Origin: Escherichia coli
Lineage (GTDB): Bacteria > Pseudomonadota > Gammaproteobacteria > Enterobacterales > Enterobacteriaceae
DNA: 64,000 nt
Assembly: GCF_036507355.1 (NCBI RefSeq)
Contig: NZ_AP027877.1
Reading direction: 5' to 3' (one strand)
Shown: piece by piece, positions 2,565-56,735 of the stretch
Numbering within the stretch: the stretch's first letter is position 1
How the letters are laid out: each line of letters opens with the position of its first letter
Notes under the pieces: generated by a model
Seen by the model: only the letters and a program-made list of their open reading frames with translations
Databases searched by the model: none
What the model was told of the DNA's origin: nothing
Program-made: the position numbers and the translations under genes

Positions 2565-2904
2565 TACCGTTGTCTCTCGTCTAGGTTTACTCCTGATAGA
2601 AAGTCATCGGCATTTGACGGTAATTACTTACGACTAAAAGCCTCTTTGCGTCACATTTTTACAACAATTATTGCAGAGAAGATTAATGCCATTGGAATGA
2701 AGAGAGTAACGAATGGTTAAACTGGCTAACCCGAATGACGAAAAATTCTGGAAAACAGCACGCAATTTCGTCAGGTGATTATTTTCGTCCCTAAGGAAAC
2801 CACATAGGATGCTCACGGGTGCCTGAGACTTTCTGTTTTCAGGCTAACCGGGAATCAGAAAGACGAAGGCCCCGACCGATATTTCTATCAACCGAGGCCA
2901 ACGA

Positions 2905-3112
<208 letters not shown>

Positions 3113-3357: not shown

Positions 3358-3601
3358 ATAACCTCCATGGTTTATCGAATCTTATGTTCGATTTGAACGT
3401 TATACGCTGGTTTATTTTGATACCGTTGATGAGATCAAAGATCGGGTGAATTGATTAAAAATAAGCCAGATGGACGTATGGGCAAGGATTATGGTTTTAT
3501 TTGTCATACAAATAAATATAATAGGCGCTTCCGATGTAGACCCGTATTCTTCGCCTGTACCACGGGTCGGTTTTAGTACAGGCGTTTTCTTTAAATATCC
3601 T

Positions 3602-17581: not shown

Positions 17582-18478
17582 TCAATACAACTCATCAAGT
17601 TTTCTCATCGCTTGTTCCCGTATTGCGCGCGTCTTACCGTTAAGCGCCAGCTGGCGAACTAAATCCAGTTCAGGGTTAACAAGCTCTAACGCCAGCAAAG
17701 GATCACGTTTCAGCCTCGCCTTTAATACATCAACTGGAAAACGGGGATTATTCATCGCCACAATCCACCACTCGGGATCAATTTCTGCCGCCAGTACTGC
17801 AGGCGGTGTGTGGCGGTTGTTAAGTGCGCCGAACTTGAAAAATGTGAGATTGCTTTTCGCCAGTGTACTCCACCATATACGATCCGGTTGTTTTGCCAGT
17901 ACATCCAGTTGTGCTAACGCATCGGGGTCTAGTGCATAATAAACACGTAACGCTTCGTTAACCTGCGCACGGGAACTGTTTTCCTGCCTCAGAAAAAACT
18001 TCGCCCAAATATCATTGCGTGGCGTGTTTTGCTGTAATTCCTTGAGAACAACAGCGGGTAAATTATCCCAACTAATTAATGCACTCTCTAAAAAGTCCCA
18101 GTCGTCCGAACGTATCAGAGAGGTGGCATTTAATAGCATCTGGTCATCAACTTCACCGTAGCTGATAAGCTCAGACAAAATCATATCAGCGCTGGTTTCA
18201 TATGCATCTGAATCTGCTTTGGGATTATTTTTCCGATGCGATAAAGCACGTTGCCAAATTTTTTGTTTCATCGACGTGCTCAGATACTGATTTTTCGCCA
18301 GATTACTCCACCCCTCAGGATCGTTGAAACGTGTCAATAACCGTTGTAAAGCAGCGTCAGAGTGAATTATCTGCATATCCCGACAGCAAAAGTAGGCAGG
18401 GGATTTTTTCTCCATCCTTTTAACAAAATTAAACTGTAAGTTATCTGGCAACGCTAAAAATAACGCATCTATTAGATC
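17582..18478 (-). pseudogene. ydbD: 3' fragment of ydbD-like gene, truncated at its 5' side by IS1
   Basis: 289-aa C-terminal-type ORF (17582..18451) runs up to the IS1 end at 18479 with no credible upstream start; symbol from synteny next to ynbA, moderate certainty. Confidence 0.5.
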
Positions 18479-31708: not shown

Positions 31709-31737
31709 ATGCTCTGGATAAGGATTATCCAATTCTA

Positions 31738-31846
31738 AAAAAAAGCCCGGACGACTGTTCGGGCTTGTCTTTTTATATGTTGGAAAATCAGTGGCAATGC
31801 AATGGCCCAACAGAAAATAAAATCTGTGACAATAAAGGCATATAAC
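31738..31846 (-). ncRNA. micC: MicC small RNA (porin regulator), divergent from ompN
   Basis: Minus strand reads GTTATATGCCTTTATTGTCACAGATTTTATTTTCTGTTGGGCCATTGCATTGCCACTGATTTTCCAACATATAAAAAGACAAGCCCGAACAGTCGTCCGGGCTTTTTTT, matching MicC as I recall it, ending in a hairpin plus T-run. Confidence 0.8.
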
Positions 31847-32073
31847 CCGCGCAGAATAACGTATAGAAAATTAAAAGTATAATTTTTATTTTGTATGTAT
31901 TATCTTCGATACATTCACCAGACTTATTATCATTTCAGAAGAATTATTTGATTAAGGTTTTACTTAAGGCGTAACAAATGATATTTATCGGCTAACTGAA
32001 CTTCTCCTTTAGGATGTTTTCACTCCCCGAAATGGGGATAAAAGGCAAATAAAATAACTAAAGGATTTATTCA

Positions 32074-34248: not shown

Positions 34249-34833
34249 TTACTCCCTGACAGGGTTCGTAGGCCACTCAATATCAGGTGCAGTTGATGTA
34301 TCAACACGGTTCAGCAACACCCGATACTTTTTCCAGGCTTCCAGCAATGAGGTTTCTTCCTCCGTTGCGATTTCCAGATCCACAGCATCCTGAAGTGGCG
34401 CAATATGCTCACTGGCTACCTGCATCAGGCTGTTTTTTGTTTCTTCCGCCTCTCGGATCCGGAACAGTTTTTCTGCTTCTGCATCTTTCACCCAGGCTGT
34501 GCCGTTCCACTTCTGAAACTCCCCTTCCGGCGATAACCAGGTAACATTTTCCGGTAACGGACCGAGTTCAGAAATAAATAACGCGTCCCCTGACGCTACG
34601 TCATAAACCGTTTTACCCCGATGGTCTTCAACGAGATGCCACGATGCCTCATCACTGTTGAAAACAGCCACGAAGCCTGCCGGAATATCTGGCGGTGCAA
34701 TATCGGTACTGTTTGCTGGCAGACCTGTATGAGGCGGAATATATGCATCACCTTCACCAATAAATTCATTAGTTCCGGCCAGCAGATTATAAATTTTTAT
34801 GGTCCGTGGTTGTTCACTCATTCTGAATGCCAT
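34249..34833 (-). CDS. tfaR: Phage tail fibre assembly protein
   Basis: 194-aa ORF directly downstream of the tail-fibre remnant; Tfa-like sequence; prophage context. Confidence 0.7.
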
Positions 34834-42346: not shown

Positions 42347-43330
42347 ATGAGAAAAATTATGAGATATGACAATGTTGGTGATGCTGCCAACTTACTGATT
42401 TAGTGTATGATGGTGTTTTTGAGGTGCTCCAGTGGCTTCTGTTTCTATCAGCTGTCCCTCCTGTTCAGCTACTGACGGGGTGGTGCGTAACGGCAAAAGC
42501 ACCGCCGGACATCAGCGCTATCTCTGCTCTCACTGCCGTAAAACATGGCAACTGCAGTTCACTTACACCGCTTCTCAACCCGGTACGCACCAGAAAATCA
42601 TTGATATGGCCATGAATGGCGTTGGATGCCGGGCAACAGCCCGCATTATGGGCATTGGCCTCAACACGATTTTACGTCACTTAAAAAACTCAGGCCGCAG
42701 TCGGTAACCTCGCGCATACAGCCGGGCAGTGACGTCATCGTCTGCGCGGAAATGGACGAACAGTGGGGCTATGTCGGGGCTAAATCGCGCCAGCGCTGGC
42801 TGTTTTACGCGTATGACAGGCTCCGGAAGACGGTTGTTGCGCACGTATTCGGTGAACGCACGATGGCGACGCTGGGGCGTCTTATGAGCCTGCTGTCACC
42901 CTTTGACGTGGTGATATGGATGACGGATGGCTGGCCGCTGTATGAATCCCGCCTGAAGGGAAAGCTGCACGTAATCAGCAAGCGATATACGCAGCGAATT
43001 GAGCGGCATAACCTGAATCTGAGGCAGCACCTGGCACGGCTGGGACGGAAGTCGCTGTCGTTCTCAAAATCGGTGGAGCTGCATGACAAAGTCATCGGGC
43101 ATTATCTGAACATAAAACACTATCAATAAGTTGGAGTCATTACCGACAATGTTAAACCATGTCCATTTTGTGGTTGTCCATCAGTAACGGTGAAAGCCAT
43201 TTCAGGATATTACCGAGCGAAGTGTAACGGATGCGAATCCCGAACCGGTTATGGTGGAAGTGAAAAAGAAGCACTCGAAAGATGGAATAAACGAACCACT
43301 GGAAATAATAATGGAGGTGTTCATGTATAA
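42347..43330 (+). pseudogene. ralR: lar/ralR (restriction alleviation; type I TA toxin) interrupted by IS1
   Basis: 5' codons (MRKIMRYDNV) at 42347..42376 and the remainder (…KPCPFCGCPSVTVKAISGYYRAKCNGCESRTGYGGSEKEALERWNKRTTGNNNGGVHV*) at 43145..43330, separated by IS1 with a duplicated GACAATGTT. Confidence 0.7.
42377..43144 (+). mobile_element. insAB: IS1 (768 bp), copy 3, simple insertion; insA 42432..42707, insB' 42626..43129
   Basis: Terminal IRs present; perfect 9-bp target-site duplication GACAATGTT at 42368..42376 and 43145..43153. Confidence 0.9.
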
Positions 43331-43532
43331 AATTACCGCCACTATTGAAAAGGAAGGTGGCACTCCTACTAACTGGACAAGATATTCAAAATCTAAACTA
43401 ACGAAATCAGAATGCGAAAAAATGCTCTCAGGTAAAAAAGAAGCAGGCGTTTCCAGAGAGCAGAAAGTAAAACTGATAAATTTTAATTGCGAGAAACTTC
43501 AGTCCTCGAGAATTGCATTGTATTCAAATTAA
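43323..43532 (+). CDS. ydaC: Small prophage protein
   Basis: 69-aa ORF MYKITATIEKEGGTPTNWTRYSKSK… whose start overlaps the lar stop; symbol from position between lar and xisR. Confidence 0.6.
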   Translation: MYKITATIEKEGGTPTNWTRYSKSKLTKSECEKMLSGKKEAGVSREQKVKLINFNCEKLQSSRIALYSN

Positions 43533-46178: not shown

Positions 46179-47552
46179 TTATTTTAATAACCGCACCCGG
46201 CACGTTTTTCCTTTAATCTTCCCGCCCTGTAACTGTTTCCATGCTTTATGAGCAACAGCCTGACGGACCGCGACATAGACATGCGCCGGATGCACGGCGA
46301 TTTTGCCAATATCTGCGCCATCAAGCCCGATATCTCCTGTCAGTGCACCTAATACATCACCCGGGCGCATTTTGGCTTTTTTCCCGCCATCGATACACAA
46401 CGTTGCCATTTCTGCTTCCAGCGTCACAATGGAACTATTAGCTGGCGGCGTTTGCCAGTTAAGTTTTATCTGCAACATGTCAGAAATGATATTGGCCCGC
46501 TGTGCTTCTTCCGGAGCACAGAAACTGATCGCCAGACCGCTATTTCCTGCACGAGCTGTACGACCGATGCGATGTACATGAACTTCAGGGTCCCACGCCA
46601 GCTCAAAGTTCACCACCAGCTCAAGCGATTTAATATCCAGACCACGCGCAGCAACATCAGTCGCGACCAGTACACGGGCGCTACCGTTAGCAAAACGTAC
46701 CAGGGTCTGATCGCGATCGCGTTGCTCCAAATCGCCGTGTAATGACAATGCACTTTGCCCTACTTCATTCAGCGCGTCGCAGACAGCCTGGCAATCTTTT
46801 TTGGTATTGCAAAACACCACGCAAGAGGATGGCTGATGCAAGCTTAATAACCGTTGCAACAGAGGAATTTTGCCTTTACTGGATGTCTCATAAAATTGTT
46901 GATCAATGGGTGGCAAAGCATCTGTTGAGTCAATTTCAATCGCCAAAGGATCGCGTTGCACTCGTCCGCTGATTGCAGCGATGGCTTCCGGCCAGGTTGC
47001 TGAAAACAGAAGCGTCTGTCGAGATGCAGGCGCAAAACGGATGACATCATCAATGGCATCGCTAAATCCCATATCCAGCATGCGGTCGGCCTCATCCATC
47101 ACCAAAGTATTCAGCGCATCCAGTGATACCGTGCCTTTTTGCAAGTGATCCAGCAAACGACCCGGCGTTGCCACGATAATATGCGGCGCATGTTGCAACG
47201 AATCACGCTGCATACCGAACGGTTGACCACCGCACAACGTCAAAATTTTGGTATTTGGCAGAAAACGCGCCAGCCGACGCAATTCACCTGCCACCTGATC
47301 CGCCAGTTCACGCGTAGGACACAGCACTAAAGCCTGGGTTTGAAATAGCGACGCATCAATTTGCTGTAACAAGCCGAGGCCAAAAGCCGCCGTTTTGCCG
47401 CTGCCGGTTTTCGCCTGCACGCGAACATCTTTTCCGGCAAGGATCGCCGGAAGCGCGGCGGCCTGCACCGGCGTCATGGTTAAATAACCCAACTCATTAA
47501 GGTTCGTGAGTTGGGCGGGAGGCAAAACATTCAGGGTAGAAAAAGCGGTCAC
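46179..47552 (-). CDS. dbpA: DEAD-box ATP-dependent RNA helicase (23S rRNA specific)
   Basis: 457-aa ORF with Walker A (AKTGSGKT), DEAD box (LVMDEADRML), SAT and HRIGRTAR motifs. Confidence 0.9.
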   Translation of the reverse strand: MTAFSTLNVLPPAQLTNLNELGYLTMTPVQAAALPAILAGKDVRVQAKTGSGKTAAFGLGLLQQIDASLFQTQALVLCPTRELADQVAGELRRLARFLPNTKILTLCGGQPFGMQRDSLQHAPHIIVATPGRLLDHLQKGTVSLDALNTLVMDEADRMLDMGFSDAIDDVIRFAPASRQTLLFSATWPEAIAAISGRVQRDPLAIEIDSTDALPPIDQQFYETSSKGKIPLLQRLLSLHQPSSCVVFCNTKKDCQAVCDALNEVGQSALSLHGDLEQRDRDQTLVRFANGSARVLVATDVAARGLDIKSLELVVNFELAWDPEVHVHRIGRTARAGNSGLAISFCAPEEAQRANIISDMLQIKLNWQTPPANSSIVTLEAEMATLCIDGGKKAKMRPGDVLGALTGDIGLDGADIGKIAVHPAHVYVAVRQAVAHKAWKQLQGGKIKGKTCRVRLLK

Positions 47553-47581
47553 AATCTATTCTCGTGGTCATCGACGCAAAG

Positions 47582-47755
47582 TTAGCAGGCGCGTATCCTC
47601 GCAGATCTACGCTCACGATGCGACAATTTAATCGGTTCTTCATCGGGTGGTGGGTCAGGCATGGGTTGCGGGCGAGGGATCGGATCGGGCACTGGAACAG
47701 GATCGCCAGGAATCGGTTCAGGGACAGGAATTTGCAAATAAATAAGTGTCGTCAT
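47582..47755 (-). CDS. Small proline-rich ORF (57 aa) immediately upstream of dbpA, unidentified
   Basis: Manual translation: MTTLIYLQIPVPEPIPGDPVPVPDPIPRPQPMPDPPPDEEPIKLSHRERRSARIRAC; GGAGGG Shine-Dalgarno about 5 nt upstream of the ATG; ends 30 nt before the dbpA start. Confidence 0.45.
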   Translation of the reverse strand: MTTLIYLQIPVPEPIPGDPVPVPDPIPRPQPMPDPPPDEEPIKLSHRERRSARIRAC

Positions 47756-47812
47756 ATTTCCCTCCGGTCATTGGGTGGACTCTTAAAGGGTAGACGCTGA
47801 TAAATAACAGGC

Positions 47813-47934
47813 AAAAAAAAGCCGACTCATCAAAGTCGGCGTCGTACGAATCAATTGTGCTATGCAGTAATTCAAAAAAGGAAGTAAGACAATATGGAGC
47901 GCAACGCCCATCGCTTGACGTTGCATTCACCTGC
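47813..47934 (-). ncRNA. fnrS: FnrS small RNA
   Basis: Minus strand reads GCAGGTGAATGCAACGTCAAGCGATGGGCGTTGCGCTCCATATTGTCTTACTTCCTTTTTTGAATTACTGCATAGCACAATTGATTCGTACGACGCCGACTTTGATGAGTCGGCTTTTTTTT, matching FnrS as I recall it, with terminal hairpin and T-run. Confidence 0.8.
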
Positions 47935-47969
47935 AAGAGAGATATTGCCCTGAATGGGTAGAGAGTTTA

Positions 47970-47983
47970 TTGACTTCGCTCAA
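47970..47983. promoter_or_regulatory. FNR-type binding site (TTGAC-N4-CTCAA) centred about 42 bp upstream of fnrS
   Basis: ttgacttcgctcaa palindrome resembling the FNR consensus TTGAT-N4-ATCAA, at the class II activation distance. Confidence 0.6.
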
Positions 47984-48029
47984 ACTTTGCGGCGTTTTTG
48001 TATACAGACAGCCGGAAAAATTGCTTTTG

Positions 48030-49034
<1,005 letters not shown>

Positions 49035-51084: not shown

Positions 51085-51278
51085 GTAACCTCCTATGCAC
51101 CTTCACACGTCGTGATTCAGACGGGTTAATTGTTCATACTTACTGCATCGTTCCCTTCACAGATTGAAACAATACTCTACTTCATACCTGTGAGTATCTG
51201 CGCAGGCGGGGCATTTTATACTAGCCTGTTAGCAGTATCGAACAGTTTAGCCCGAGTTTAATTCAGCACAGGCTCCGA

Positions 51279-52792
51279 TCAGGATGATTTATTCATAGCA
51301 GGAACCAACAAAAATGCGATAAATAACAGACCACTGATTAGCAGAAAGGTATCCGAAAATGCCATAGTTTGCGCCTCCCTCAGCATCAATTGACTCAATA
51401 ATTTGGTTGAAGCCAGTATTTCCGATGTCTGGTCACTTCCACTGCGATTAAAAAATAAAGCACTTCTGGAAATGAAGTCATTCACCGTATGGGGAACAGA
51501 AACCATTTTTTCACCCATTCTCGAAAAATGAAAATTAGTTCGATTATTGAGAATAGAGCCACACAGGGCAATACCGATCGCGCCCCCAAGATTACGTGTT
51601 AAATTAAATACACCAGAGGCTAACTTCAGCCGTTCTTTTGGAATTCCCCCCAGCGTTAATGTTACGATGGGGGCCATCGCAAACTGCTGCGAAATCCCTC
51701 TAATTGCCTGTGGAAACAGTAACTCCTGCCATCCCCATTCGTGGGTTATAGGGGTAAAAAGATACATTGAAAACACAAATCCGCCCAGCCCCGCCATCAA
51801 CAGCCATCGCAGATTTATTTTTTTACTTAACCAGAAGTAAAAGGGAACAGAAAATAACTGGAAAATACCTGTTGTGCAAACGGCAAAACCTATCTCTTCG
51901 GCATTTAATCCGCGAATCTGCCCCAAAAACACAGGTATTAAATATACAGTAGAGAATATCCCAACTCCTCCAGAAAAAGAAAAAAACATCCCAGAGTGAA
52001 ATTTTTATCCTTAAAAGCATGAAGATCCATTATCGGATTGGATATTGTAAGTGTACGCGCAGCAAATAAAATAAAACTCACCAATGCCAGAACTGATGTC
52101 AGCAAAATAGTATTATCATCCAGCCATCCCCAGCGCGCTCCTTCTTCAAGGGTATATTCCAGACATCCCAGTGTCATGGCCAACAGGATAATACTCGGAT
52201 AATCAGCAACTTTCAGTAAAGAGAGATCAGGTTTATCAAAATTAACCAGAAAAGGAATACTCAAAACTAAATATATGCCAGGTAATATATTGATATAAAA
52301 TAGCCATCGCCAGTCGAGGTTATCAGTGATCCAGCCCCCCAGAGTTGGCCCTAGCGTCGGTGACAGTGAGGCCAGCGCACTGACTACCGCAGCAGCCAAC
52401 CCCAACTCTTTACCCTGGTAATAAATAAACGCCGTCGTGAAAACTAAAGGGATCATGGATGCGCCAGCAGCTCCCTGTAAAGCACGAAACAAAATCATGA
52501 TCTGAATATTCCATGCAAGTCCACACGCGATACTCATTAAAGTAAATATTCCCGCGGATAGAGTAAAAAGCCAACGAGTGGAAAATACCCGTGACAGCCA
52601 CCCAGAGAGCGGAATAACAATAATCTCAGCAATTAAATAGCTGGTCTGAAGCCAGGCCATTTCGTCTTTACCTGCGGACAGACCACCACCTATTTCATTT
52701 AGGGATGACGATACAATTTGAATATCAAGCTGAGCAATAAATAATCCCATACACATACTGGCGAAAGCAATATGTTTACGCATAGACATCAT
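51279..52792 (-). pseudogene. EmrB/QacA-family MFS efflux transporter, disrupted by a frameshift
   Basis: Two ORFs in different frames (51938..52792 N-terminal half, 51279..51989 C-terminal half) overlapping by about 50 nt; both multi-TM MFS-like. Confidence 0.65.
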
Positions 52793-53820
52793 CTCTCATC
52801 AACACTGACGGTGACGGACAGTCCCGGGCGAAGAAGTTGCTTTAATTCCTTTGCGTCGTCAAATGCAATCCGTACCGGGACACGCTGAACAATTTTGGTG
52901 AAATTGCCAGTGGCATTTTCTATCGGAATCAAGCTGAAACTGGCTCCTGTCGCTGGGGAAAGGCTTTCAATGTGACCGTGAAACACTTCCCCTTTGAGAA
53001 TATCAGCACGGATCTCAGCCTTCATTCCTGGCTTCATTCCCGCTATTTGGTTTTCTTTATAATTTGCATCAACCCACAACTCACTGACTGGTACTAGTGA
53101 AACTAACGATGTGCCGCCTTCCACCCAACTGCCTGTATGGGCGCTGCGGTTTGCGACAATGCCATCAATCGGCGCACGAACAAGGGTATATTCCAGATCC
53201 AGTAGTGCCTGAGTCAAAGCGGCCTGAACTTCTTCGATACTCGCACGTACGTTTTCTTCCTGAGCAGATAAAACTGCCAGCCGTTGCTTCTCCACCAGGA
53301 AATCGTTCGCGGCTTTGCGCTCCTTTGCTGCGACCTGCTGGTAGTCAAACCTGGCGTTATCAATAATTTGTTGCGATATTGCCGCTGATTGTGCGAGTTT
53401 TTCATAACGTTCAGTATCTCGCAGGCGCTTTTGCTCCTCATGTTTTACTGCCTGCCATGTTTCACTGGCACTTTGAATTATCGACTGCTGCATCGCAATA
53501 GTGGCTTGAATGCTTTCGAGATTGGCTTTGCTACTTTTTATTTTTGCCTCAAGCCTGGCGACATTTGCACGATAATCCCGATCATCGAGACGCAGGATAA
53601 TATCGCCTTTTTTTACGCTCTGATTATCGCGCACCTCTATAGCAGAAATATAACCAGAAACTTTACTTGCCACCGTGGTGATATTACCACCAATGTAAGC
53701 ATCATCCGTCGTCTGTATAAATCTTCCTTTGCTTACCCACCAGATAAAAAAGACAACGCCAGTCAAAAGAATACCGATCGCTACCACCCCAATAAGCTGT
53801 TTTTTAGAAATTATCATCAC
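52789..53820 (-). CDS. HlyD/EmrA-family membrane fusion protein
   Basis: 343-aa ORF with N-terminal TM anchor, long coiled-coil region and a C-terminal beta domain; stop overlaps the MFS start. Confidence 0.75.
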   Translation of the reverse strand: MMIISKKQLIGVVAIGILLTGVVFFIWWVSKGRFIQTTDDAYIGGNITTVASKVSGYISAIEVRDNQSVKKGDIILRLDDRDYRANVARLEAKIKSSKANLESIQATIAMQQSIIQSASETWQAVKHEEQKRLRDTERYEKLAQSAAISQQIIDNARFDYQQVAAKERKAANDFLVEKQRLAVLSAQEENVRASIEEVQAALTQALLDLEYTLVRAPIDGIVANRSAHTGSWVEGGTSLVSLVPVSELWVDANYKENQIAGMKPGMKAEIRADILKGEVFHGHIESLSPATGASFSLIPIENATGNFTKIVQRVPVRIAFDDAKELKQLLRPGLSVTVSVDER

Positions 53821-53913
53821 TCTTTACACCGTATATATCCGGAAACTTGCATACGTCATATTTAAAATTTAACATGGCTTATTTGATGATTTCTGACAAA
53901 ATACCTACTGTAA

Positions 53914-54729
53914 ATGACAATTACACTGCAACCCAAAGCATCACCAGGGCATCACATTATCGGACTGGATTCGGAACATCTGAATGGAGGTACAGTTCCC
54001 TGGCATAAACATCTCTATGCCCAGTTGCTTTACCCGGCTGAAGGAGTCGTTCGTGTATGGGCTGGAGAAAGCGTCTGGCTAGTCCATGCCAGCAGCGCGC
54101 TTTGGCTGCCCCCACAAATGCCGCATAAGTTTGTTGCGACAGGCAACGTACTTTTAAAAACCGTACTGGTTTCAGAAGCGGAAAGTGAAACGCTGGGAAC
54201 AGTTTGCTTCATGACGGGTATTTCACCCCTGTTAAGGGAATTACTAATTGCAATTAACCAACTTCCACCGTCGCAAAGTACCACAGATAAACAACAGTTA
54301 CGTTTTTCAGCCCTCGAGACACTGATACTTCAGGAAATAAAAATGGGGGTGAAAATGTCACTTGAACTCCCTTGGCCAAATGATGAGCGGCTACAGCAGC
54401 TTTGTGAGAATTTGCTAAACAACCAAGGGTATCTGCCAACACTGGATAATCTAGCGGATAAAATTAACGTCAGTAGCCGTACACTCATGCGCTTATTTGT
54501 TAAAGAGACGGGATTAACATTTCGCCACTGGGTTCAGCAAATGCACGTTATATCTGCAGTGACGCTTCTTGATGATGGATATTCGTTGACCAAAATTGCC
54601 CATCGTCTGGGCTATGCCTCAGCTGAATCGTTCGGCAATATGTTTAAGCGTCGAACGGGTTACTCGCCCGGTAAATTTACTCGTCGATTAACGATGCATG
54701 ATTATGCAATCACAAGACAAATGATTTAA
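53914..54729 (+). CDS. AraC-family transcriptional regulator (cupin N-domain plus HTH), divergent from the efflux genes
   Basis: 271-aa ORF with a C-terminal AraC-type HTH (…LTKIAHRLGYASAESFGNMFKRRTGYSPGKF…). Confidence 0.75.
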   Translation: MTITLQPKASPGHHIIGLDSEHLNGGTVPWHKHLYAQLLYPAEGVVRVWAGESVWLVHASSALWLPPQMPHKFVATGNVLLKTVLVSEAESETLGTVCFMTGISPLLRELLIAINQLPPSQSTTDKQQLRFSALETLILQEIKMGVKMSLELPWPNDERLQQLCENLLNNQGYLPTLDNLADKINVSSRTLMRLFVKETGLTFRHWVQQMHVISAVTLLDDGYSLTKIAHRLGYASAESFGNMFKRRTGYSPGKFTRRLTMHDYAITRQMI

Positions 54730-54799
54730 CTTATATTTTCGTGAAATCTGTCACTGAAGAAAATTGGCAACGGATGGGTAAAACCGTTATAACACTGTC

Positions 54800-54894
54800 A
54801 CCGGTCACCAGGACCCCAGGCCGGATTTAAGACGAGGATGCACTGCTGTGTGTACTGTAGAGTCTGGCGGATGTCGACAGGCTCTATTTTTTTA
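54800..54894 (+). ncRNA. mcaS: McaS (IsrA)-like small RNA, variant sequence
   Basis: …GGATTTAAGACGAGGATGCACTGCTGTGTGTACTGTAGAGTCTGGCGGATGTCGACAGGCTCTATTTTTTTAT closely matches McaS as I recall it; the 5' about 25 nt differ but still form a stem. Confidence 0.6.
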
Positions 54895-55272
54895 TTCATT
54901 TTTTAGCTCTGTAAATAACCACATTCTCGCCGGGATTGGGGAATGAGTGACGAGATCAGTGGTGTCTGGCGGCTATCACGCCACAGAATCAAATAACAGA
55001 TAGCCTACGGTAAAATTTCGCTGACTGGAATTATCCCACCCTCGATCCATGTGATGGCTTGCCCTCATTTCTTCAGGCAGAAAAATCAAAAAATCGCTTT
55101 ATGCTATCAAACTGCGACAAACCAGACGCGAAACTGGGTACTTACTATTCGTTAGTCTTGCCCTATCCACTTATCTTTTTGGTGGTATGGCTGCTGATGT
55201 TGCTGGCGTGGTATCTTGTCGGTCTGCCGATAGGTCCGGGTATTTACCCACGTTTGTCTTAAGAGAGAACGG

Positions 55273-55788: not shown

Positions 55789-55982
55789 ACATTAAACAAT
55801 TTGTGCCAGCTTGTTCACACTTTTATGTAAAGTTACCCTTAACAACTTAAGGGTTTTCAAATAGATAGACATATATTTACATCTAATATCGGAATTCTCT
55901 GCTGTTAAGGTTTGCTTAGACTTACTTGCTCCCTAAAAAGATGTTAAAATTGACAAATATCAATTACGGCTTGAGCAGACCT

Positions 55983-56735
55983 ATGATCCCGGAAAAGCGA
56001 ATTATACGGCGCATTCAGTCTGGCGGTTGTGCTATCCATTGCCAGGATTGCAGCATCAGCCAGCTTTGCATCCCGTTCACACTCAACGAACATGAGCTTG
56101 ATCAGCTTGATAATATCATTGAGCGGAAGAAGCCTATTCAGAAAGGCCAGACGCTGTTTAAGGCTGGTGATGAACTTAAATCGCTTTATGCCATCCGCTC
56201 CGGTACGATTAAAAGTTATACCATCACTGAGCAAGGCGACGAGCAAATCACTGGTTTTCATTTAGCAGGTGACCTGGTGGGATTTGATGCCATCGGCAGC
56301 GGTCATCACCCGAGCTTCGCGCAGGCGCTGGAAACCTCGATGGTATGTGAAATCCCGTTCGAAACGCTGGACGATTTGTCCGGTAAAATGCCGAATCTGC
56401 GTCAGCAGATGATGCGTCTGATGAGCGGTGAAATCAAAGGCGATCAGGACATGATCCTGCTGTTGTCGAAGAAAAATGCCGAGGAACGTCTGGCTGCATT
56501 CATCTACAACCTGTCCCGTCGTTTTGCCCAACGCGGCTTCTCCCCTCGTGAATTCCGCCTGACGATGACTCGTGGCGATATCGGTAACTATCTGGGCCTG
56601 ACGGTAGAAACCATCAGCCGTCTGCTGGGTCGCTTCCAGAAAAGCGGCATGCTGGCAGTCAAAGGTAAATACATCACCATCGAAAATAACGATGCGCTGG
56701 CCCAGCTTGCTGGTCATACGCGTAACGTTGCCTGA
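55983..56735 (+). CDS. fnr: Anaerobic global regulator FNR (CRP/FNR family)
   Basis: 250-aa ORF from the internal ATG with the N-terminal Cys cluster (…[16 protein letters not shown]…) and C-terminal HTH. Confidence 0.9.

What the first reader, a model, noticed from the sequence alone, without database searches (positions are those of the whole stretch)
47813..47983. FnrS sRNA with an FNR box at the class II position
The sRNA and a ttgacttcgctcaa site centred about 42 bp upstream of its 5' end are both readable directly. Together with fnr itself 8 kb away, the anaerobic regulator and its sRNA arm are both in this window.
Basis: partly seen in the sequence, partly recalled or inferred. Interest (0 to 1): 0.25.

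Follow-up and report, generated by a model that had tools for sequence, protein, structure and literature searches.

The report
Known FnrS sRNA with FNR promoter
This stretch is the well-known Escherichia coli small RNA gene fnrS with its oxygen-sensor (FNR) binding site, base-for-base identical to the laboratory strain K-12, so the finding is correct but ordinary.

Summary
The observation and its interpretation both hold. Rfam's FnrS model (RF01796) matches window 47934-47817 on the minus strand at 134.8 bits (gathering score 60). The whole zntB-ynaL spacer is identical to E. coli K-12 MG1655, where the 122-nt fnrS (b4699) is annotated. That places fnrS at window 47934 (5' end) to 47813 (3' end), minus strand. 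The quoted 14-mer is at 47970-47983. On the gene's strand it reads TTGAGCGAAGTCAA, 8 of 10 matches to the FNR consensus TTGAT-N4-ATCAA, centred at -42.5. This is the position given for fnrS in a published FNR ChIP-seq study, and it lies within that study's class II range (-41.5 +/- 4). The motif alone is not significant in the window (3 matches, 1.59 expected). Its placement is: 113 of 114 fnrS homologues across Enterobacterales carry a box at the same offset (within 1 nt), with invariant TG and TCAA cores, a conserved -10 (CAATAT) and invariant RNA from +1. fnr (100% identical to K-12 FNR) lies at 55983-56735, 8.05 kb away. Nothing here is new. Side observations: the abg operon is lost and replaced in this strain, and the small gene ynaL is tightly linked downstream of fnrS.

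The parts
47813..47934 (-). fnrS gene, 122 nt. The 5' end (+1, G) is at 47934 and the 3' end, after a U8 tail, is at 47813.
   Evidence: Rfam RF01796 at 134.8 bits. Identical to the MG1655 ncRNA b4699. Published mutant numbering (G4, G5; C47 U48 U49; U57-59) fits this 5' end. Cross-genus conservation becomes invariant exactly at +1.
47926..47934 (-). FnrS nt 1-9 (GCAGGUGAA), the 5' single-stranded pairing region. It holds G4 and G5, which are changed in the published fnrS-III mutant.
   Evidence: Invariant in 109 loci. Mutant definition. Unpaired or weakly paired in the fold.
47900..47925 (-). Stem-loop 1 (nt 10-35): a 9-bp stem with an invariant AAGCGAUG loop.
   Evidence: Minimum-energy and centroid folds. 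99.7% of cells paired across 36 genera-level sequences, with 2 pairs showing compensatory changes.
47874..47899 (-). C/U-rich single-stranded linker (nt 36-61), the main target-pairing and Hfq-type region. It includes C47-U49 and U57-U59, the published fnrS-II and fnrS-I mutant sites.
   Evidence: Unpaired in the centroid fold. Mutant positions. Single-base and other non-triplet gaps (1-9 columns) in this part of the alignment, so it is not coding.
47848..47873 (-). Stem-loop 2 (nt 62-87).
   Evidence: Fold. 94-97% of cells paired across genera.
47813..47840 (-). Intrinsic terminator: an 8-bp G+C-rich hairpin (47840-47821) plus a U8 tail (47820-47813).
   Evidence: Terminator scan. 5 of 8 pairs show compensatory changes across genera.
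47942..47947 (-). -10 hexamer CAATAT at -13 to -8. G-14 (47948) is also invariant.
   Evidence: Footprint over 109 loci: G-14, C-13, A-12 and T-8 are invariant. No two-hexamer sigma-70 consensus is found in 47500-48300, as expected for an activator-dependent promoter.
47970..47983 (-). FNR box TTGAGCGAAGTCAA, centred at -42.5 (class II), replacing the -35 element.
   Evidence: Same offset in 109 of 116 loci, within 1 nt in 4 more. T-48, G-47 and TCAA (-39 to -36) are invariant while -41 is free and -43 and -40 vary. ChIP-seq peak and a -42.5 site reported for the identical K-12 sequence.
47995..47999 (-). Conserved A-tract at -65 to -61, just upstream of the FNR dimer. Inferred to be a favourable alpha-CTD docking site; this is not shown.
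   Evidence: Positions -64 to -61 are 75-94% A, while conservation at -75 to -66 is near zero. The function is inferred from the class II activation model.
48030..49013 (-). zntB, the upstream neighbour on the same strand. Its stop codon lies 96 nt before the fnrS 5' end.
   Evidence: NCBIfam NF007092 ZntB, 645 bits. Annotation.
47582..47755 (-). ynaL, a 57-aa proline-rich small protein gene that starts 57 nt after the FnrS 3' end.
   Evidence: Translation identical to the published YnaL sequence. Annotation.
55983..56735 (+). fnr, the oxygen-sensing regulator that acts on the box.
   Evidence: NCBIfam NF008365 at 529.5 bits. 250/250 identical to MG1655 FNR.
55950..55963 (+). TTGACAAATATCAA, 20 nt upstream of the fnr start codon: the FNR site in fnr's own promoter.
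   Evidence: Pattern search and sequence. That this is the autoregulation site rests on established knowledge of fnr autorepression and was not tested here.

Best explanation
Window 47813-47983 (minus strand) is the fnrS locus of an E. coli strain. It is an independent transcription unit driven by a class II FNR-dependent sigma-70 promoter. Without oxygen, FNR holds a [4Fe-4S] cluster, dimerises and binds TTGAGCGAAGTCAA centred at -42.5. There it stands in for a -35 element and recruits RNA polymerase to the weak -10 hexamer CAATAT. Transcription starts at G 47934 and stops at the hairpin plus U8 terminator, giving a 122-nt Hfq-type sRNA. FnrS pairs through its single-stranded 5' end (nt 1-9) and its C/U-rich linker (nt 36-61) with the translation-initiation regions of mRNAs that are not needed anaerobically (reported examples: sodB, marA, iscR, gpmA, cydDC) and represses them. 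This gives the activator FNR an indirect repressing arm. Shown here: the identity, boundaries and structure of the RNA; the sequence, position and deep conservation of the box and the -10; the presence of an intact fnr. Taken from the literature for the identical K-12 sequence: FNR occupancy, anaerobic induction and the targets. Inferred: the contacts with RNA polymerase, Hfq binding, and the role of the A-tract.
For: Rfam RF01796 at 134.8 bits against 60, full length. Identity to annotated MG1655 fnrS and its promoter. The sequence is present in 5392 of 5426 complete E. coli genomes. Terminator found by scan. Three helices are supported across 36 diverged sequences: 94.8% of cells paired against 29-43% when the partners are slid, and 9 pairs with compensatory changes. 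The FNR box sits at the same offset in 113 of 114 homologues from Yersinia, Serratia, Erwinia, Pantoea, Pectobacterium, Dickeya, Edwardsiella, Photorhabdus, Arsenophonus and others. The footprint has invariant TG and TCAA, spacer positions -43, -41 and -40 variable, an invariant -10 core, and a sharp onset of invariance at +1. Myers et al. 2013 (PMC3688515) report an FNR ChIP-seq peak at fnrS, one site at -42.5, higher sigma-70 occupancy without O2, and 11 operons regulated indirectly through FnrS. Anaerobic expression and repression of iscR are reported in PMC11572966. fnr is intact.
Against: Nothing contradicts it. Limits: no expression data exist for this strain. The two founding papers (Durand & Storz 2010; Boysen et al. 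2010) were not held in the library, so their content is cited only through later papers. The box matches only 8 of 10 consensus positions, with G rather than T/A at the inner position of each half-site. The fold-energy z-score of the single sequence is modest at -1.67. A role for ArcA is reported, but no ArcA site was looked for here.
Confidence: 0.97

Rival explanations
1. The 14-mer is a chance match, or a site for CRP (a paralogue with a similar palindrome), and fnrS is driven by something else.
For: The core motif is no more frequent in the window than chance (3 against 1.59 expected). The box has only 8 of 10 consensus matches.
Against: Both half-sites begin TTGA, the FNR-discriminating form; CRP prefers GTGA...TCAC. 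The position is conserved within 1 nt in 113 of 114 homologues, with invariant cores and variable spacer positions. FNR ChIP-seq occupancy is reported on the identical sequence.
Confidence: 0.01
2. The RNA is not an independent gene but a 3'-UTR fragment processed from read-through zntB transcripts.
For: No terminator-like hairpin lies between the zntB stop (48030) and fnrS. The first terminator downstream of zntB is FnrS's own. The two genes are on the same strand, 96 nt apart.
Against: A conserved -10 and activator site sit at the right distances from a sharply defined +1. Higher sigma-70 occupancy without O2 is reported at this promoter. fnrS is annotated as its own gene. Read-through could add a minor second source but does not replace the promoter.
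Confidence: 0.02
3. The region encodes a small protein: a mechanical 72-codon ORF runs from 47936 to 47718 on the minus strand and covers FnrS.
For: The ORF appears in the six-frame list.
Against: It starts with TTG at -2 and has no ribosome-binding site. Homologues differ by gaps of 1, 2 and 4 bases inside the RNA, which would break any frame. Conservation follows base-paired helices with compensatory changes rather than codons. The ORF also runs through the terminator.
Confidence: 0.005

Closest known systems
FnrS (fnrS, b4699) of E. coli K-12 MG1655; Rfam RF01796
   Same: The sequence is identical over the whole 122-nt RNA and the promoter up to the zntB stop codon. Same neighbours (zntB upstream, ynaL-dbpA downstream), same FNR box at -42.5 and same terminator.
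   Different: Nothing within the locus. The wider context differs: fnr is 8.05 kb away here against 9.6 kb in K-12, because the abg operon is deleted or replaced.
Class II FNR-activated promoters of E. coli (narG, dmsA and nirB at -41.5; ydhY at -42.5)
   Same: A single FNR site overlaps the -35 position, no usable -35 hexamer is present, and the -10 is weak. The site lies inside the -41.5 +/- 4 range.
   Different: The product is a regulatory RNA rather than an enzyme operon. The centre is -42.5, but the -10 also sits one base further from the start (-13 to -8), so the box-to-(-10) distance equals that of a -41.5 promoter.
Regulator-plus-sRNA pairs such as Fur-RyhB, and FNR-induced sRNAs in Neisseria (from my own knowledge, not tested here)
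   Same: The same circuit logic: a transcription factor gains the opposite sign of control by switching on or off an Hfq-dependent sRNA. FnrS and RyhB share the targets sodA, sodB and marA according to PMC8595263.
   Different: No sequence relationship. RyhB is repressed by Fur, whereas FnrS is activated by FNR.

Membership tests
FnrS sRNA (Rfam RF01796) | Covariance-model score above the curated gathering score, over the full model | tested here: met
   134.8 bits against 60; model positions 1-119 of 119; E = 4.4e-24
FnrS sRNA (Rfam RF01796) | Sequence correspondence to the experimentally defined E. coli fnrS (b4699, 122 nt) | tested here: met
   100% identity over the RNA and promoter. Published mutant residue numbers fit.
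FnrS sRNA (Rfam RF01796) | Two internal stem-loops plus a Rho-independent terminator with a U tail, maintained in evolution | tested here: met
   Fold, terminator scan, and 94.8% of cells paired with 9 compensatory pairs in 36 sequences
FnrS sRNA (Rfam RF01796) | Conserved genomic context (between zntB and ynaL/dbpA in Enterobacteriaceae) | tested here: met
FnrS sRNA (Rfam RF01796) | Anaerobic, FNR-dependent accumulation; Hfq dependence; repression of targets by base pairing | not testable with these tools
   Known only from the literature on the identical K-12 sequence
Class II FNR-dependent promoter | Inverted repeat matching TTGAT-N4-ATCAA with both TTGA/TCAA cores | tested here: met
   TTGAGCGAAGTCAA, 8 of 10 matches, both cores intact
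Class II FNR-dependent promoter | Site centred near -41.5 (+/- 4) from the transcription start | tested here: met
   -42.5 from the annotated 5' end at 47934. The same value appears in Myers et al. Table 1.
Class II FNR-dependent promoter | A -10 element at the right distance and no autonomous -35/-10 consensus | tested here: met
   CAATAT at -13 to -8 with invariant A-12 and T-8. No two-hexamer match in the scan.
Class II FNR-dependent promoter | FNR occupancy in vivo and FNR-dependent activation | not testable with these tools
   ChIP-seq peak reported for K-12. Not measurable here for this strain.
Class II FNR-dependent promoter | Evolutionary maintenance of the site at a fixed position | tested here: met
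   109 loci at the identical offset and 4 within 1 nt. One exception has a 3-nt spacer, L119.

The most novel reading that the evidence does not exclude
fnrS and the small-protein gene ynaL, 57 nt downstream, may form a conserved functional unit. The same spacing is seen in Citrobacter, Enterobacter and Klebsiella, ynaL also follows fnrS in Salmonella, and the same spacing holds for one weaker Erwinia match. No promoter-like site was found in the spacer. On this reading, partial read-through of the FnrS terminator would put ynaL (and perhaps dbpA) under anaerobic FNR control. The conserved A-tract at -65 to -61 would be a second determinant of promoter strength. The evidence here neither shows nor excludes any of this.
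Probability: 0.08. Interest if true: 0.3.

Novelty: already known. Interest (0 to 1): 0.05.

Why it matters
It matters only as a correct annotation. FnrS is the post-transcriptional arm of the FNR oxygen response, and it explains how an activator indirectly shuts down aerobic functions. Its presence, intact and identical to K-12, alongside an intact fnr means the circuit is expected to work in this strain. The cross-genus footprint made here (box, -10, A-tract, sharp +1) is a tidy confirmation of the promoter architecture, not a discovery.

Tried and rejected
1. I tried to read the two founding papers, Durand & Storz 2010 and Boysen et al. 2010, by PubMed and PMC id. Neither is held. Their content is therefore used only as reported by later papers.

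2. The simple promoter scan found no sigma-70 consensus in 47500-48300. This fits an activator-dependent promoter, so I derived the -10 from the phylogenetic footprint instead.

3. RNAalifold's own consensus did not recover stem-loop 2 and proposed a long-range 1-4/72-75 pairing. I tested the three-helix structure explicitly and it held. The long-range pairing rests on nearly invariant columns and was not pursued.

4. A '+' strand terminator-like hairpin at 47945-47961 lies inside the promoter. It has a poor T-run and no convergent gene, so I treated it as chance.

5. A literature search for 'YnaL' alone returned chemistry papers. Refining the search gave VanOrsdel et al. 2018.

6. Two hits of the search pattern outside Enterobacterales (a Cyanobacteria MAG, L042, and a Dechloromonas MAG, L061) have no FnrS-like flanks. 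They are chance matches.

Full report
**Observation.** Window 47600-48200 was read directly. A scan of the whole window against Rfam gave seven matches above gathering score. One is RF01796 (FnrS) at 47934-47817 on the minus strand: 134.8 bits against a gathering score of 60, E = 4.4e-24, full model 1-119. On the strand of the gene it reads TTGAGCGAAGTCAA.

**Identity.** A 401-base query around the locus is found in 5392 of 5426 complete E. coli genomes, at 99% identity or more in 5225. In MG1655 the region is annotated zntB - fnrS (b4699, 122 nt) - ynaL - dbpA. Aligning window 47757-48029 (-) with the MG1655 zntB-ynaL spacer shows identity at every position except one base next to the ynaL ribosome-binding site.

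- The annotated fnrS therefore maps to 47934 (5' G) through 47813, minus strand.
- The residue numbers of the published Durand & Storz mutants, as listed in PMC8595263 (G4, G5; C47 U48 U49; U57-U59), fall on exactly those bases when counted from 47934.

**Anatomy of the RNA.**

- The single-sequence fold gives stem-loop 1 (nt 10-35), an unpaired C/U-rich linker (nt 36-61), stem-loop 2 (nt 62-87) and a terminator hairpin (nt 95-114) followed by U8. The terminator scan finds the same hairpin at 47840-47821.
- The fold energy alone is unremarkable (z = -1.67), so I tested the structure on relatives.
- One scan of the species-representative genome collection with a pattern from the RNA's loop and linker returned 120 loci, almost all Enterobacterales. 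Thirty-six sequences less than 90% alike were aligned.
- On that alignment the three-helix structure is paired in 94.8% of cells, against 29-43% when the partners are slid by 1-3 columns. Nine pairs show compensatory changes, five of them in the terminator.
- Non-triplet gaps such as 1, 2 and 4 bases occur within the RNA. This rules out the mechanical 72-codon ORF that overlaps it.

**The promoter.**

- Counting from +1 = 47934, the box spans -49 to -36 and is centred at -42.5.
- The motif TTGA-N6-TCAA is not enriched in the window: 3 matches against 1.59 expected. One of the other two matches lies 20 nt upstream of the fnr start codon, in fnr's own promoter.
- What makes the fnrS box convincing is its placement and its conservation. 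Of 116 loci with enough flank, 109 have their best FNR-like 14-mer at exactly the same offset from the RNA, and 4 more are within one base.
- Of the three remaining loci, two are chance pattern hits outside the order. The third, Enterobacter sp. EA-1, has a box with a 3-nt spacer.
- The column-by-column footprint over 109 loci shows several features:
  - T-48, G-47 and TCAA (-39 to -36) are invariant, while -41 is unconstrained and -43 and -40 vary.
  - G-14, C-13, A-12 and T-8 are invariant, defining a -10 hexamer CAATAT at -13 to -8.
  - An A-tract at -64 to -61 is conserved.
  - There is essentially no conservation upstream of -66.
  - Invariance begins abruptly at +1.
- No two-hexamer sigma-70 consensus is detectable, as expected when an activator replaces the -35 element.
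- Because the -10 sits one base further from the start than usual, the distance from the box to the -10 is the same as in a canonical -41.5 promoter.

**Literature.**

- Myers et al. 2013 (PMC3688515) list fnrS in their Table 1 among operons with an FNR ChIP-seq peak. It has one site at -42.5 and higher sigma-70 occupancy without oxygen.
- The same paper defines class II as -41.5 +/- 4 and attributes the indirect regulation of 11 operons to FnrS.
- Later papers report anaerobic expression, dependence on FNR and ArcA, and repression of targets such as iscR, sodB and marA by pairing.
- The two founding papers could not be read.

**The regulator.** fnr lies at 55983-56735 (+). It scores 529.5 bits against NCBIfam NF008365 and is 250/250 identical to K-12 FNR. 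In MG1655 the distance is 9.6 kb. The difference comes from the region between smrA and ogt. Here abgA and abgB are absent and abgR and abgT survive only as remnants. In their place sit a frameshifted DHA2 efflux gene, a HlyD-type adaptor gene and an AraC-family regulator gene. This layout is shared by 1316 of 5426 E. coli genomes.

**Mechanism and rivals.** The best explanation is the textbook one. Under anoxia, dimeric [4Fe-4S]-FNR binds the box at -42.5 and recruits RNA polymerase. A 122-nt sRNA is made and terminated, and it represses mRNAs of aerobic functions by pairing through its 5' end and its C/U-rich linker. I considered three rivals:

- A chance or CRP site.
- Processing from a zntB read-through transcript.
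- A small ORF.

Each is contradicted by the footprint, by the ChIP data or by the pattern of insertions and deletions. Read-through from zntB cannot be excluded as a minor extra source, because no terminator lies between zntB and fnrS.

**Verdict.** The locus is already known and is identical to the reference. Interest is low. The most novel reading still open is possible transcriptional coupling of fnrS to the downstream small gene ynaL. That remains speculative.

Noticed in passing
window 51100-55270: Compared with K-12 and O157, abgA and abgB are absent, and abgR and abgT are annotated as remnants at the corresponding place in strain A30. Between smrA and McaS lie a DHA2 MFS efflux gene split by a frameshift (ORFs 51279-51989 and 51938-52792, -), a HlyD-type adaptor (52789-53820, -) and an AraC-family regulator (53914-54729, +). 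The same layout occurs in 1316 of 5426 complete E. coli genomes, and it is annotated with pseudogenes in strain A30.
   Followed up: partly
window 47582-47755 (-), and loci L003, L008, L074, L102, L040 and others: ynaL, a validated 57-aa proline-rich small protein gene, starts 57 nt after the FnrS U-tail. tblastn finds it behind fnrS in Citrobacter, Enterobacter, Klebsiella, Salmonella and Kosakonia, and more weakly in Erwinia and Pantoea (low-complexity caveat). The fnrS-ynaL distance, worked out by hand for four loci (L003, L008, L074, L040), is 161-170 nt against 161 in the window. The simple scan finds no promoter-like site in the spacer, so ynaL may depend on read-through from fnrS.
   Followed up: partly
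window 47995-47999 (-65 to -61 of PfnrS): An A-tract just upstream of the FNR box is conserved across Enterobacterales (75-94% A at -64 to -61), while the sequence beyond -66 is unconstrained. It may be an alpha-CTD docking site or UP-like element.
   Followed up: no
window 47935-48029 (-): No terminator-like hairpin lies between the zntB stop codon (48030) and fnrS. The first terminator downstream of zntB is FnrS's own, so zntB transcripts may end there and carry the FnrS sequence in their 3' end.
   Followed up: no
L119 (Enterobacter sp. EA-1), upstream of its fnrS: This is the only true homologue of 114 whose FNR box is out of register. It reads TTGCG-CCA-GTCAA, with a 3-nt rather than a 4-nt spacer, although the -10 and the RNA are intact.
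   Followed up: partly
window 55950-55963 (+): TTGACAAATATCAA lies 20 nt upstream of the fnr start codon. It is a better consensus match (9 of 10) than the fnrS box and corresponds to the site through which FNR is known to repress its own gene.
   Followed up: partly
window 18324-18337 (+): A third TTGA-N6-TCAA match, TTGAAACGTGTCAA. Its context was not examined.
   Followed up: no
window 2817-2968, 3528-3591, 31729-31849, 34292-34490, 43329-43507, 54800-54895: Six other Rfam matches above gathering score: sok-type antitoxin RNA (+), RydC (+), MicC (-), IS009 (-), RalA antitoxin sRNA of a Rac-type prophage (-) and McaS (+). The spacing between fnrS, RalA, MicC and RydC looks much shorter than I recall for K-12 (not checked here), which suggests a reduced prophage and island content in this strain.
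   Followed up: no
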